From the UHGV virus genome UHGV-0120089: a stretch of 14,833 nt of DNA; one strand, written 5' to 3'. The notes under the pieces are model-generated. The model searched no databases. It had not been told where the DNA came from and saw only the letters and a list, made by a program, of their open reading frames with translations. Origin of the DNA: a virus. This document shows, piece by piece, positions 9 through 6,290 of the stretch. The position numbers were made by a program, and so were the translations under genes. How positions within the stretch are numbered: position 1 is the first letter of the stretch; each line of letters opens with the position of its first letter.

Positions 9-104
9 TCAATAATCGTTATCCACATCATCAGCCGCCGACCTGAATATCAGCCAGGCGGCGATCACAAACACCAATGCAACCCCACCAATTGCCAACC
101 ACAT
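9..104 (-). CDS. Possible 31-aa hydrophobic peptide (MWLAIGGVALVFVIAAWLIFRSAADDVDNDY), below the ORF-track size cutoff
   Basis: Hand translation of the minus strand: ATG at 104-102, TGA at 11-9, one predicted TM helix plus acidic tail, G-rich stretch just upstream of the ATG. No homolog recognised. Confidence 0.25.
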   Translation of the reverse strand: MWLAIGGVALVFVIAAWLIFRSAADDVDNDY

Positions 105-200
105 AGACACCCCCCGCTTCGACAATCTAAATCTCCTTGCTTCTCATGGTCTTTTCAATTCGTGCATTCGATCTTCTTAATCAAATTCACTGATCGATAT

Positions 201-220
201 TACTGTATATGCATACAGTA
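201..220. promoter_or_regulatory. LexA (SOS) box TACTGTATATGCATACAGTA overlapping the promoter of the 241-800 operon
   Basis: Perfect CTGT-N8-ACAG palindrome with near-consensus flanks, about 20 bp upstream of the RBS AGGAGGG (227-233) and the ATG at 241. Confidence 0.8.
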
Positions 221-240
221 ATCATCAGGAGGGACAAGCG

Positions 241-480
241 ATGCCCCGAGACTACGACATTCCATATGCTTTCACGCTAGCCATCACACCAAACGCCAGA
301 GGTGTGCAGGTCGTCGCCACATCAGTATTCCGCCGTGAACTACACAAGCTTAATCACGACTGGACTCTGCAGCGCTGCAATGAGTGGATAATTAGCAGGC
401 AGACGTTCTTCGCGGACATCACCGAAGGTGATTCAGTTGATGGTACTTACGCGCTACGCAACATGGGGAGGGTTCTCTAA
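241..480 (+). CDS. Hypothetical 79-aa protein, first gene of an SOS-box bicistron
   Basis: ORF with a strong RBS at 7 nt spacing; its stop overlaps the next start (TAATG at 478-482), implying translational coupling. No family recognised. Confidence 0.55.
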   Translation: MPRDYDIPYAFTLAITPNARGVQVVATSVFRRELHKLNHDWTLQRCNEWIISRQTFFADITEGDSVDGTYALRNMGRVL

Positions 481-800
481 TGGGATTTCCTTCACCGGCA
501 ACTGATTATGTTGAAGAACGCATTAACCTCAACCGCATATTCATACCCAATCCAGCGAACACCTTCATGATTGAGACATCGACCGGCTGCATTCTGGTTG
601 ACAGGGTGGCTAAGGTTTCGCCTGGCGATTTGGTTGCGTTCCAGATGGAAGGCAATCCCATGCTTGGAAAATGGTACCCGAAGCACCTGATGACGGATGA
701 CGGTTTGATAGAGGGTGAGCAACTGGAAGAGGTAATAGTGCTGGGTGCGGTGACGGTGGAAGTGCTGACGCTGGATGAGAAGTGGAGGCCGACTATATAG
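480..800 (+). CDS. UmuD'-like (HumD-like) protein, S24/LexA-fold C-terminal domain lacking the N-terminal cleavable arm
   Basis: N-terminus MGFPSPATDYVEERINLN matches, from memory, E. coli UmuD residues 25 onward (GFPSPAADYVEQRIDLN), i.e. it starts where processed UmuD' starts. Downstream VSPGDLVAF resembles ISDGDLLIV. The GDSM serine motif is not obvious (ETSTGC instead). No umuC-like gene follows. Confidence 0.6.
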   Translation: MGFPSPATDYVEERINLNRIFIPNPANTFMIETSTGCILVDRVAKVSPGDLVAFQMEGNPMLGKWYPKHLMTDDGLIEGEQLEEVIVLGAVTVEVLTLDEKWRPTI

Positions 801-1111
801 GGGATTACTCCCCATCAATCCAGTCCGCCCACCATTGCATCATTTCTCTGCGCTTAACGTGGCAGATGCCTCACTATCACACGGTGATGGTTCATTACTG
901 GTTTGCAGAATGGATAGAGAACTGAGGATAAAAGATATCCCAAAACTCCAAAATCTCATCTTTAGGATTTGCAGAAAGGGAGGCGTGAACAAATACCTGC
1001 GCATGAAAACGGAACTAGTCCAGATGTGATGTTTGTGGTGATCACATACATCATCAACGATGCTCGTTATGGTGAGTTTTATGACTGCCAAGTAATGTGA
1101 AAATTGCGATG

Positions 1112-1135: not shown

Positions 1136-1362
1136 AAATCATAAACCATGAAACCCTTACTCATGGCTGTTCTCAGGCTGGGTGCGTGTAATCGTGAAAG
1201 AGAAAGGTAGGTTGCTTATCTGTGTCTGTCATTGTCTAGCATTGTCCACTGTAGTTAATTAACTGCCTGTTATAACTCGAAAAACAACCATTTTTTCACC
1301 TGAGTATGTCTACGAACGTCAAATATAGTTGTTTACTGTGCGCTGTTGTCCATGTGATATTG

Positions 1363-1413: not shown

Positions 1414-2592
1414 ATGGCTATAAGCGACACAAAACTGCGTACTATTTATGGTAAACCATATTCGGGCCCACAAGAAGTGGCTGATGCTGATGGCCTCAGC
1501 GTACGAATTTCACCGAAGGGGGTCATCCAGTTCCAGTACCGCTATCGCTGGCATGGCAAGCCTAATCGACTTGGGCTTGGTCGATACCCATCCCTGTCTT
1601 TGAAGGATGCCAGACAGATCACTGCTGACTTGCGAAAGCTCTATTTCTCAGGAACGGATCCACGCACTTATTTTGAAGAGAAGGTGGAGAACTCCATGAC
1701 GGTCGCCCAGTGTCTCGACTACTGGTTCGACAACTACGTCTCTACAACTCTCAGAGAAAAGACCCAGGCACTTTACCGATCAACGGTTATGAAGCGCATG
1801 CATGACGCCTTTCCTAATCGTCCGGCATCTTCTATCACGGTTAAGCAATGGGTTGACCTGCTTACCGAAGAAGAAAGAGATAATCCACGCCGAGCAAGGC
1901 AGGTGCTAAGTCAACTAAGATCAGCAATAAGTTGGTGCATGCGGCGTCAGTTGATAGATAGTTGCGCAATTATGAGCATCCAACCAAGGGACTTCGGCTC
2001 CCGCGCTGAGGTAGGGGATCGGGTACTGTCGTATCACGAACTGGCTAAGATTTGGCTTGCTATTGAAAGAAGCCGTGCGTCTACGTCAAATAAGCTACTT
2101 CATCAGATGCTTATGCTGTGGGGGGCGAGGCTCTCAGAGCTTAGGCTGGCAACAAAGACAGAATTTGACCTGCTGGACAACGTATGGACCGTACCGAAAG
2201 AGCATAGCAAGATGGGCAATGTTATCCGCCGTCCAATCTTCGAACAAATTAAGCCTTTCCTCGAAAAGGCCATGACAACGTATAATGATGTTCTTTTCCC
2301 TGGAGAAGACATAAGCAAGCCGATCAGCATCGCTGCAGCCAACCGATTCGTAAATAGAATAAGGGGAGGGATGGATCTAGGTTACTGGCGAACACACGAT
2401 TTCAGAAGAACGCTTGTTACACGTCTGTCCGAGATGAATGTCGAGCCTCATGTTACTGAGCGAATGCTCGGTCATGAACTTGGCGGGATAATGTCAGTAT
2501 ACAATAAACACGACTGGATAGAGGCTCAGCGCAAAGTGTATGAGCTTCACGCTGATAAATTGTTCTGGCACATCAGGAGCATTTCTGATTAA
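1414..2592 (+). CDS. int: Tyrosine site-specific integrase, P4-type (N-terminal arm-binding domain plus catalytic domain)
   Basis: 392 aa. N-terminal GLSVRISPKGVIQFQYRYRWHGK is typical of the P4-integrase arm-binding (DUF4102-type) domain. C-terminus carries the catalytic signature: R in GARLSELR, HDFRRT (H-x-x-R), and LGHELGGIMSVYNKHDW (His and nucleophile Tyr). Confidence 0.93.
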   Translation: MAISDTKLRTIYGKPYSGPQEVADADGLSVRISPKGVIQFQYRYRWHGKPNRLGLGRYPSLSLKDARQITADLRKLYFSGTDPRTYFEEKVENSMTVAQCLDYWFDNYVSTTLREKTQALYRSTVMKRMHDAFPNRPASSITVKQWVDLLTEEERDNPRRARQVLSQLRSAISWCMRRQLIDSCAIMSIQPRDFGSRAEVGDRVLSYHELAKIWLAIERSRASTSNKLLHQMLMLWGARLSELRLATKTEFDLLDNVWTVPKEHSKMGNVIRRPIFEQIKPFLEKAMTTYNDVLFPGEDISKPISIAAANRFVNRIRGGMDLGYWRTHDFRRTLVTRLSEMNVEPHVTERMLGHELGGIMSVYNKHDWIEAQRKVYELHADKLFWHIRSISD

Positions 2593-6085: not shown

Positions 6086-6218
6086 TTTTTGGGACTCCTG
6101 GCTGATTAAGTATGTCGATAAGGCGTTTCCATCCGTCACGTAATTTACGGGTGATTCGTTCAAGTAAAGATTCGGAAGGGCAGCCAGCAACAGGCCACCC
6201 TGCAATGGCATATTGCAT
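6054..6218 (-). CDS. cIII: Lambda CIII (54 aa; FtsH/HflB inhibitor protecting CII)
   Basis: Hand translation from ATG at 6218: [54 protein letters not shown], stop at 6054-6056; matches lambda CIII from memory. Below the ORF-track cutoff. Confidence 0.85.
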   Translation of the reverse strand: MQYAIAGWPVAGCPSESLLERITRKLRDGWKRLIDILNQPGVPKNGSNTYGYPD

Positions 6219-6290
6219 GGTGTGCTCCTTATTTATACATAACGAAAAACGCCTCGAGTGAAGCGTTATTGGTATGCGGTAACGCCGCGC

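What the first reader, a model, noticed from the sequence alone, without database searches (positions are those of the whole stretch)
201..800. LexA-box bicistron encoding a pre-truncated UmuD'-like protein with no umuC partner
A near-perfect SOS box sits on the promoter of a tightly coupled two-gene operon. The second product begins at the position where RecA-mediated cleavage turns UmuD into UmuD', so it is born in the processed form, as phage P1 HumD is. The usual GDSM serine motif is not evident, and no UmuC/DinB-like polymerase gene follows. The 79-aa upstream partner is unrecognised. An SOS-induced orphan UmuD' mimic could engage host UmuC/UmuD or RecA filaments, for example to modulate mutagenesis or a DNA-damage checkpoint, or serve another element's induction circuit. 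It sits just outside the integrase end of the prophage, so it may belong to the host or to a neighbouring island.
Basis: partly seen in the sequence, partly recalled or inferred. Interest (0 to 1): 0.62.

Follow-up and report, generated by a model that had tools for sequence, protein, structure and literature searches.

The report
SOS-controlled phage UmuD'-like two-gene cassette
This is a DNA-damage-inducible two-gene cassette carried by temperate phages next to their attachment site; it encodes an uncharacterised small winged-helix protein and a stripped-down, ready-made copy of the UmuD' subunit of the bacterial error-prone DNA polymerase, and it most likely lets the phage use the host's polymerase without waiting for normal activation.

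Summary
A 20-bp palindromic LexA box (201-220, 18/20 to consensus) sits on the promoter of two overlapping genes, ORF1 (241-480, 79 aa) and ORF2 (480-800, 106 aa).

- **ORF2:** It starts at the residue equivalent to UmuD Gly25 and is predicted to have the UmuD' fold. The loop carrying the catalytic Ser is deleted and the Lys is not conserved.
- **ORF1:** A confidently predicted generic winged-helix protein with no known family.

The cassette is not host DNA or a separate island. It is a temperate-phage moron lying between the tail genes and attP/int. The window shows the phage-type junction: cassette, a decayed long humD gene (813-1100), attP core (1188-1200), then int.

The LexA box and the overlapping gene pair are conserved in 28 of 28 species loci and in about 45 phage genomes, and both genes are under purifying selection. 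The promoter copies the umuDC promoter architecture. Near-identical ORF1s pair with either a true HumD orthologue or the short type.

An armless short-type relative is translationally coupled to umuC in 64 of 70 viral loci. The short core is therefore most likely a Pol V accessory subunit that here serves host UmuC.

ORF1's role is unknown. I class this as a new variant of the known HumD kind, of moderate interest.

The parts
177..182 (+). -35-like hexamer TTAATC (TTGATC in relatives and in the E. coli umuDC promoter), 18 nt upstream of the -10
   Evidence: TTGATC, a 17-18 nt spacer, then TACTGT is conserved in 14 of 16 cassette promoters compared. The E. coli umuDC promoter has the same architecture. 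The window carries a G-to-A change relative to near-identical copies.
201..220 (.). LexA (SOS) box TACTGTATATGCATACAGTA; its left half TACTGT (201-206) is the inferred -10 hexamer
   Evidence: 18/20 to consensus, unique in the window, 0 of 200 shuffles. A box lies 34-43 nt upstream of the ORF1 ATG in 26 of 27 species loci and in all phage loci examined.
241..480 (+). ORF1, 79 aa: small winged-helix-fold protein of an uncharacterised family (PHROG 3893)
480..800 (+). ORF2, 106 aa: short, catalytically dead UmuD'/HumD-type protein that starts at the Gly25 equivalent
   Evidence: phmmer to UmuD/UmuD' E about 1e-8 from Gly25. PHROG 3469 'UmuD-like' E 3e-20. AF2 model best matches UmuD' 1umu/1ay9 at TM 0.61, prob 1.0. 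Ser loop deleted and Lys not conserved. dN/dS 0.06-0.17.
813..1100 (+). Frameshifted 3' remnant of a long (P1/N15/HK140-type) humD gene
   Evidence: Two reading frames give ...VADASLSHGDGSLLVCRMDRELRIK... and ...VMFVVITYIINDARYGEFYDCQVM*, matching HumD ...VVDSSLTPVDGSLLVCAMEGEYRIK... and ...VFGVITHVINDARSGEFDDCPVI. The same remnant is present at 97% in phages Sf101, mEp234 and E212 and in 1218 E. coli genomes, one of which annotates it as an S24 pseudogene.
1188..1200 (.). attP core (type 2851, sbcB-dacD site); context showing that the cassette lies on the phage right arm
   Evidence: The mEp234 attP annotation maps to these coordinates. Stx-prophage records begin at 1188. Similarity to prophage-B-free E. 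coli ends at 1214.
1414..2592 (+). Tyrosine integrase (context), followed by AlpA-type excisionase at 2573-2764 on the minus strand
   Evidence: Pfam Arm-DNA-bind_3 plus Phage_integrase. 97% identical module in HK140, Sf101 and mEp234.

Best explanation
The region is a LexA-repressed accessory operon (moron) of a temperate phage, placed between the tail genes and attP.

In a lysogen, LexA sits on a box that overlaps the -10 of a promoter with the umuDC architecture and keeps the operon off. DNA damage cleaves LexA, and both genes are then made together through translational coupling.

ORF2 is a minimal HumD/UmuD'-type protein. It is born at the post-cleavage Gly and has lost the active-site loop it no longer needs. 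It most likely pairs with host UmuC, which nearly every E. coli carries. That would give a Pol V-like translesion activity early in the SOS response, bypassing the slow RecA-dependent UmuD cleavage step. This would help replicate damaged phage or host DNA during induction.

ORF1 is a small winged-helix protein made in step with ORF2. I infer that it is an accessory factor of this UmuD'-type protein, acting as an adaptor, stabiliser or partner-selector. Its activity is unknown.

**Shown:** the sequence features, their conservation, the predicted folds, the phage ownership and the operon contexts.

**Inferred:** LexA control in vivo, ORF2-UmuC pairing, and any ORF1-ORF2 complex.
For: **Operator and promoter**
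- A LexA box at a fixed distance is conserved across about 35 diverged loci.
- TTGATC, a 17-18 nt spacer, then TACTGT matches the E. coli umuDC promoter.

**ORF2 is UmuD'-type**
- It aligns to UmuD from Gly25.
- It matches the HumD and UmuD NCBIfam models over residues 1-36 and PHROG 'UmuD-like'.
- The predicted fold matches UmuD'.
- It shares a C-terminal P-x-I tail with HumD.

**Same slot as real HumD**
- HK140 has dinI, a LexA box, an ORF1 homologue, then a 129-aa protein 66% identical to P1 HumD, then the same attP/int. The P1 record notes that HumD functionally complements UmuD' and has a LexA site.
- ORF1s that are 97% identical pair with either the long HumD type or the short type.

**The short core partners a polymerase**
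- CobraSix gp29 (101 aa) is 40-49% identical to the ORF2 family and has the same loop deletion.
- It overlaps the start of a UmuC that is 85% identical to E. coli UmuC, behind a LexA box.
- 64 of 70 such IMG/VR loci are followed directly by umuC.

**Host partner available**
- umuC is present in 5423 of 5426 complete E. coli genomes.
- No umuC occurs in any cassette locus.

**Both genes are functional**
- dN/dS is 0.03-0.17.
- The stop/start overlap is kept in 26 of 28 loci as scanned, plus one variant with an inserted Pro.
Against: - ORF2 resembles UmuD/HumD strongly only in the first 36 or so residues. It scores 38.9 bits against a 120-bit cut-off for the NCBIfam HumD equivalog, and is below the Pfam S24 gathering score.
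- The UmuC-coupled short proteins lack the GFPSPA arm, and they come from one lineage (67-100% identical). The link to UmuC is by homology of the core and by gene adjacency only.
- The UmuD residues that contact RecA* (Y52, F94, D91, E93; PMC9926225) are not conserved across the short family.
- ORF1 has no detectable relation to any Pol V, RecA or SOS protein.
- No experiment or paper on this cassette was found.
Confidence: 0.5

Rival explanations
1. Brake rather than accelerator. ORF2, with ORF1, is a dominant-negative decoy. It heterodimerises with host UmuD/UmuD', titrates UmuC, or occupies RecA* filaments. The effect would be to damp SOS mutagenesis or tune RecA* coprotease activity, and hence the induction threshold, during prophage induction.
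For: - The catalytic loop is lost and the core is much diverged, while the UmuD' N-terminal arm is kept almost unchanged.
- ORF2 is strongly acidic: median pI 4.4, net charge about -7.5.
- In mEp390, HK140, HK225 and 7 of 28 species loci, a dinI homologue (a RecA-filament binder) is transcribed divergently from the same operator region.
- UmuD binds in the RecA* groove (PMC9926225).
Against: - The RecA*-contact residues of UmuD are not conserved in the family.
- The same core is the sole UmuD-like gene in front of umuC in many phages. That arrangement argues for a productive partner, not a poison.
- The short type is interchangeable with orthologues of HumD, which promotes mutagenesis according to the P1 record annotation.
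Confidence: 0.22
2. Split LexA-like regulator or antirepressor. The ORF1 winged-helix domain plus the ORF2 S24-like dimerisation domain act together as an SOS-made transcription factor or antirepressor. It would control phage genes such as excision or lytic promoters, like the LexA-controlled antirepressor modules Tum, GfoA/GftA and AntC.
For: - ORF1 is a winged helix.
- ORF1 ends exactly where ORF2 starts, at the position of the LexA/UmuD cleavage site.
- The cassette always lies beside attP/int.
- LexA-controlled antirepressor operons exist in Gifsy prophages, 186 and N15 (PMC3121763).
Against: - There is no sequence or specific structural relation to the LexA N-terminal domain.
- The ORF1 'recognition helix' and wing are acidic or neutral, and the family has net charge about +1.
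- No second conserved operator-like repeat occurs in the promoters.
- Carrier phages have ordinary cleavable HTH+S24 repressors (window cI; mEp390), so they do not need an antirepressor.
- int orientation relative to the cassette varies between phages.
- ORF2 homology is to UmuD', not to repressor C-terminal domains.
Confidence: 0.1
3. Decaying or selfish leftover of a phage-borne umuDC operon with no present function.
For: - A dead humD remnant lies immediately downstream (813-1100).
- Several loci carry frameshifted ORF2 copies (L023, L035, L036, L039).
- HK225 has lost ORF2.
Against: - Both genes are under purifying selection (dN/dS 0.03-0.17).
- Lengths are constant: 79 aa for ORF1 and 104-107 aa for ORF2.
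- The SD sequences, the stop/start overlap and the operator are conserved across Escherichia, Klebsiella, Enterobacter, Cronobacter, Pantoea, Erwinia and others.
Confidence: 0.05

Closest known systems
Phage P1 HumD (and N15 gp26 / phiKO2 gp23): LexA-regulated, born-truncated UmuD' homologue without umuC
   Same: - It starts at the Gly25 equivalent with the same MGFPSPAxDYVE arm.
- It has a LexA box just upstream and no cognate polymerase gene.
- It shares the C-terminal P-x-I tail.
- It occupies the same post-tail-fibre slot in N15-like and HK-type phages.
   Different: - ORF2 is 106 aa rather than 129 aa and only 34% identical over 85 aa.
- It lacks the whole active-site loop and an internal insertion.
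- It fails the NCBIfam HumD cut-off.
- It is always preceded by the translationally coupled ORF1, which P1, N15 and phiKO2 lack.
Chromosomal umuDC operon of E. coli (UmuD to UmuD' plus UmuC = Pol V)
   Same: - Promoter and operator architecture: TTGATC, 17 nt, then TACTGT within the LexA box. Some cassette boxes are identical to the umuDC box.
- The UmuD' fold and N-terminal arm.
   Different: - It has no residues 1-24, no Ser60/Lys97 and no self-cleavage step.
- It has no umuC.
- An unrelated 79-aa gene occupies the position of the umuD 5' end.
Phage umuD'-like/umuC operons of the CobraSix type (annotated only; not studied as far as I found)
   Same: - The same short-type core with the same loop deletion, 40-49% identical.
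- A LexA box upstream.
- The same genomic slot between tail genes and int.
   Different: - These proteins lack the GFPSPA arm and are coupled to their own umuC.
- They have no ORF1. ORF1 and umuC never co-occur in the loci examined.
LexA-controlled prophage operons with dinI and antirepressors (Gifsy dinI-gfoA/gftA, 186 tum; PMC3121763)
   Same: - A prophage-borne small operon under host LexA control, independent of the phage repressor.
- dinI is adjacent in some carriers.
   Different: - There is no sequence relation.
- Carrier phages here have cleavable repressors.
- The product is UmuD'-like, not an antirepressor.
Acinetobacter UmuDAb with its small co-factor DdrR
   Same: A UmuD-family protein that works with a small (about 80 aa) lineage-specific partner encoded next to it.
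   Different: - UmuDAb is full length, self-cleaving and DNA-binding.
- I did not test DdrR against ORF1; this comparison rests on my own recall plus abstracts seen.

Membership tests
HumD / UmuD'-type phage Pol V accessory proteins | The protein begins at the residue equivalent to UmuD Gly25 and has the conserved GFPSPAxDYVE arm | tested here: met
   phmmer alignment puts query G2 at UmuD G25. MGFPSPAxDYxE is invariant in the family.
HumD / UmuD'-type phage Pol V accessory proteins | Full-length sequence match at family (equivalog) level | tested here: not met
   NCBIfam HumD 38.9 bits against a cut-off of 120, and UmuD 39.3 against 110; both match residues 1-36 only. PHROG 3469 'UmuD-like' does match full length, E 3e-20.
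HumD / UmuD'-type phage Pol V accessory proteins | UmuD'-like beta fold | tested here: met
   AF2 pLDDT 79.8. Foldseek top hits are 1umu/1ay9 UmuD' (TM 0.61-0.62, prob 1.0), then 8gmt UmuD, then LexA and lambda cI C-terminal domains.
HumD / UmuD'-type phage Pol V accessory proteins | Restores UmuD' function with UmuC (mutagenesis complementation, UmuC binding) | not testable with these tools
   Indirect evidence only. The short-type core is coupled to umuC in 64 of 70 viral loci, and it is interchangeable with HumD orthologues behind the same ORF1.
Peptidase S24 (LexA/UmuD/cI self-cleaving proteases) | Ser-Lys catalytic dyad | tested here: not met
   The loop carrying UmuD S60 is deleted. The position of K97 is G/K/R/F/S across the family.
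Peptidase S24 (LexA/UmuD/cI self-cleaving proteases) | Pfam PF00717 at gathering score | tested here: not met
   14.9 bits against 23.3.
SOS (LexA) regulon promoters of Enterobacterales | CTGT-N8-ACAG palindrome close to consensus, overlapping the promoter | tested here: met
   18/20 to consensus, 0 of 200 shuffles. It overlaps the inferred -10, and its position is conserved in about 35 loci.
SOS (LexA) regulon promoters of Enterobacterales | LexA binding and damage-inducible, lexA(Ind-)-blocked transcription | not testable with these tools
   No expression data were found for this cassette.
LexA-controlled prophage antirepressor modules (Tum, GfoA/GftA, AntC) | The cognate phage repressor is non-cleavable and needs an antirepressor | tested here: not met
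   The window prophage cI has HTH_3 plus a full S24 domain (84.6 bits). The mEp390 repressor is annotated as LexA-family.
Winged-helix DNA-binding domains / LexA N-terminal domain (for ORF1) | Winged-helix topology | tested here: met
Winged-helix DNA-binding domains / LexA N-terminal domain (for ORF1) | Specific relation to the LexA N-terminal domain, or a basic DNA-reading helix and wing | tested here: not met

The most novel reading that the evidence does not exclude
ORF1 is a previously unrecognised, phage-encoded regulator of DNA polymerase V. It would be a small winged-helix protein that binds the conserved N-terminal arm of UmuD'/HumD-type proteins, or binds host UmuC. It would decide which UmuD'-like subunit the host polymerase uses. 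The phage could then switch host error-prone synthesis on for its own genome, or shut it off, within minutes of SOS induction.
Probability: 0.25. Interest if true: 0.7.

Novelty: new variant of a known kind. Interest (0 to 1): 0.45.

Why it matters
Pol V activation is normally delayed by slow RecA-dependent cleavage of UmuD. That delay limits SOS mutagenesis, which is a driver of antibiotic-resistance evolution.

A cassette present in roughly a thousand protein clusters across Enterobacterales prophages supplies a ready-made UmuD'-like subunit under LexA control. If it works as proposed, many clinical E. coli, Klebsiella and Enterobacter lysogens could have altered timing or level of damage-induced mutagenesis.

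The conserved 79-aa partner is a testable candidate for a new Pol V accessory factor.

The series of arrangements also documents how phages dismantle a host repair operon into a minimal hijacking module. In order: umuDC; short umuD' plus umuC; humD alone; ORF1 plus humD; ORF1 plus short umuD'.

Tried and rejected
**ORF1 homology**
- Pfam, NCBIfam and PADLOC give nothing for ORF1. Scanning 58 family members gave only weak, inconsistent Pfam hits.
- ORF1 against the LexA sequence, UmuC and phage DinI by hhalign: no relation.
- Sequence search of solved structures gave only chance talin hits.
- An exhaustive profile search of 1.84 billion representatives found only about 210 relatives, almost all around 79 aa and none with informative domain fusions.
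- The three ORF1-ORF2 fusions (P0023, P0183, P0292) look like -1 frameshift artefacts.

**RecA-contact residues**
- I mapped the published UmuD-RecA* contact residues onto ORF2. They are not conserved, so a RecA*-groove-binding role is not supported.

**Locus searches**
- The search for related loci with the broad ORF1 alignments failed because no stretch was conserved enough. A narrower alignment worked.

**Other checks**
- I looked for a second conserved operator in the promoters and found none.
- The 38-aa divergent membrane ORF is shared only with the same element.
- Eight literature searches found no study of this cassette. The P1 HumD paper (PMC94175) is not held, so HumD function is cited from the P1 record annotation and from reference lists.

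Full report
**The observation**

The window carries TACTGTATATGCATACAGTA at 201-220. This is a perfect 20-bp palindrome with 18/20 matches to the E. coli LexA consensus. It is the only CTGT-N8-ACAG in 14.8 kb, and no comparable match occurred in 200 shuffles.

A Shine-Dalgarno sequence (227-233) follows 20 nt downstream, then ORF1 (241-480, 79 aa). A second Shine-Dalgarno (465-471) precedes ORF2 (480-800, 106 aa), whose ATG shares an A with the ORF1 stop codon.

**What ORF2 is**

- phmmer against solved structures aligns ORF2 Gly2 to UmuD Gly25, the first residue of UmuD' (E about 1e-8).
- The NCBIfam UmuD and HumD models match only residues 1-36 and fall far below their cut-offs. Pfam S24 is below its gathering score.
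- PHROG 3469 'UmuD-like protein' matches over the full length (E 3e-20).
- An AlphaFold model (pLDDT 79.8, with a flexible N-terminal arm) finds UmuD' (1umu, 1ay9) as best structural match at TM 0.61, prob 1.0. Next come UmuD on RecA, then the LexA and lambda cI C-terminal domains.
- Family alignments show that the 10-11-residue loop carrying UmuD Ser60 is deleted. The Lys97 position is not conserved.

ORF2 is thus a UmuD'-fold protein that cannot be a protease and needs no processing.

**What ORF1 is**

ORF1 has no Pfam, NCBIfam or PADLOC match and hits only PHROG 3893, 'unknown function'.

Helix 3 and the wing are mostly acidic or neutral, and the family's net charge is about +1, so DNA binding is not obviously indicated.

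The family is confined to Enterobacterales. It comprises about 980 clusters at 90% identity and about 210 representatives at 50%, almost all of exactly 79 aa.

**Who owns the cassette**

It is phage cargo, not host DNA.

- ORF1 and ORF2 homologues occur together in about 45 temperate phage genomes. These include HK140, mEp390, phiES15 and many Klebsiella, Enterobacter, Erwinia and Pantoea phages. The pair always lies between the tail-fibre or tailspike genes and attP/int.
- The exact ORF2 protein is found on at least 24 contigs. In all six contexts shown, it sits at the right end of a P22-like prophage (gp7, gp20, gp16, mnt/arc, ant, tailspike) immediately before dacD-sbmC.

Downstream of ORF2, window 813-1100 is a frameshifted 3' remnant of a long humD gene. 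Phages Sf101, mEp234 and E212 carry the same remnant next to attP and the same integrase, and so do 1218 E. coli genomes.

The attP core annotated in mEp234 maps to window 1188-1200. HK140 has its cassette, this attP and this int in the same order.

The window therefore shows a phage-type junction: right arm, attP core, then int. That means either a phage or circular form, or two prophages in tandem. The rest of the window is an ordinary lambdoid/P22-like early region with a cleavable cI, and it has no Y-family polymerase.

**Conservation**

I examined 28 loci from different species genomes.

- **LexA box:** A box lies 34-43 nt upstream of the ORF1 ATG in 26 of the 27 loci with enough upstream sequence. 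The remaining locus has a one-mismatch box.
- **Gene pair:** Every locus has a UmuD'-type gene starting at the ORF1 stop. Most are the intact short type (104-107 aa), two are the long HumD type, and the rest are frameshifted or cut.
- **Selection:** dN/dS is 0.03-0.17 for both genes.

The promoters share TTGATC, a 17-18 nt spacer, then TACTGT, where TACTGT is the left half of the box. The E. coli umuDC promoter has this same architecture, and several cassette boxes are identical to the umuDC box. The operon therefore looks like a remodelled umuDC operon in which the first 24 codons of umuD have been replaced by a separate gene.

**Evidence on function**

1. HK140 gp28 follows an ORF1 homologue and is 66% identical to P1 HumD. 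The P1 record describes HumD as LexA-regulated and able to complement UmuD'.
2. ORF1 proteins that are 97% identical are paired with the long HumD type in one genome and with the short type in others. The two types are therefore interchangeable in this slot.
3. Phage CobraSix gp29 (101 aa) is 40-49% identical to the short family and has the same loop deletion. It overlaps the start codon of a UmuC that is 85% identical to E. coli UmuC, behind a LexA box and in the same genomic slot.
4. Among IMG/VR relatives of gp29, 64 of the 70 loci with enough downstream sequence are followed directly by umuC, and 74 of 79 have the LexA box.
5. No ORF1-bearing locus has umuC, whereas 5423 of 5426 complete E. 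coli genomes do.

The most economical reading is that the short core is a Pol V accessory subunit and that the ORF1-linked form serves the host's UmuC.

**Caveats and rivals**

- The gp29 lineage lacks the GFPSPA arm and is a single clade. Its link to UmuC rests on gene adjacency only.
- Only the N-terminal third of ORF2 resembles UmuD' closely.
- The UmuD residues that contact RecA* (Y52, F94, D91, E93; PMC9926225) are not conserved in the short family. This weakens models based on RecA*-groove binding.
- A decoy or brake role remains possible. It fits the acidic nature of ORF2 and the divergent dinI found in some carriers.
- A split-regulator or antirepressor role is less likely. ORF1 lacks DNA-binding hallmarks, no extra operator is conserved, and carrier phages have cleavable repressors, unlike the Gifsy and 186 systems (PMC3121763).
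- A non-functional relic is excluded by purifying selection.

**Novelty**

LexA-regulated, born-truncated phage UmuD' homologues have been known since P1 HumD, and databases already label this family 'UmuD-like'. Four things appear undescribed; I found no paper on any of them in eight searches:

- the minimal, loop-deleted lineage;
- its two alternative operon contexts, with umuC or with ORF1;
- the umuDC-type promoter;
- the conserved winged-helix partner.

I class the finding as a new variant of a known kind, of moderate interest. Most of that interest lies in ORF1.

Noticed in passing
window 813-1100: Frameshifted 3' remnant of a long (P1/N15/HK140-type) humD gene lies directly behind the intact short ORF2. 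Two generations of UmuD'-like genes therefore occupy one attP-proximal slot. The same remnant is in phages Sf101, mEp234 and E212 and in 1218 E. coli genomes.
   Followed up: yes
window 9-125 (minus strand): A 38-aa ORF (MSKRGVSMWLAIGGVALVFVIAAWLIFRSAADDVDNDY) with one predicted transmembrane helix and an AAGGAG Shine-Dalgarno. It is transcribed divergently about 76 nt from the LexA box, in the position where other carriers have dinI. It was found only in the same element (L001) and has no family match.
   Followed up: partly
window 177-206; L001, L042-L047 at the equivalent positions: Regulatory point variants occur among otherwise about 99.6%-identical copies. The window has -35 TTAATC where the others have TTGATC. 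Five of seven copies have TGCTGT instead of TACTGT in the left half of the box, which is the inferred -10. Both changes would be expected to alter promoter strength.
   Followed up: partly
window 1188-1200 and flanks: The window has a phage-type attP junction, with phage right arm to the left of the core and int to the right. It is not a host/prophage attL. It therefore comes from a phage or circular form, or from tandem prophages at the sbcB-dacD site.
   Followed up: partly
L049 3196-4769 (phage CobraSix) and L053-L120 (IMG/VR): A widespread phage operon: LexA box, a 101-aa armless short UmuD'-like gene, then umuC. In RefSeq the polymerase is annotated as hypothetical. ORF1 and umuC never co-occur in the loci examined.
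   Followed up: yes
L003 5397-5663, L011 2580-2846, L005 3662-3949: In mEp390, HK140, HK225 and 7 of 28 species loci, a dinI homologue is transcribed divergently from the cassette, about 85 nt from the single LexA box. This suggests a shared SOS-controlled divergent unit.
   Followed up: partly
P0023, P0183, P0292: Rare database proteins fuse ORF1 to ORF2 through the -1 frame, which is open for about 13 codons before the ORF2 ATG. They are probably indel artefacts, but I did not test for programmed frameshifting.
   Followed up: partly
L050 2079-2498 (Salmonella phage Oslo): The annotated 79-aa 'UmuD-like protein' gp31 is a mis-called start. The reading frame extends upstream to a full-length UmuD (MEFFRPTELREI...CGFPSPAADY...GDSM) behind a consensus LexA box.
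   Followed up: yes
L005 4001-4908 (phage HK225): HK225 keeps the LexA box and the ORF1 homologue, but ORF2 is replaced by a DNA invertase gene. This is an example of ORF1 without its partner.
   Followed up: no
window 6173-6231 (minus strand): Rfam match to the lambda cIII thermoregulator element (88.5 bits) in the early-left operon of the prophage. This is an ordinary lambdoid feature.
   Followed up: no
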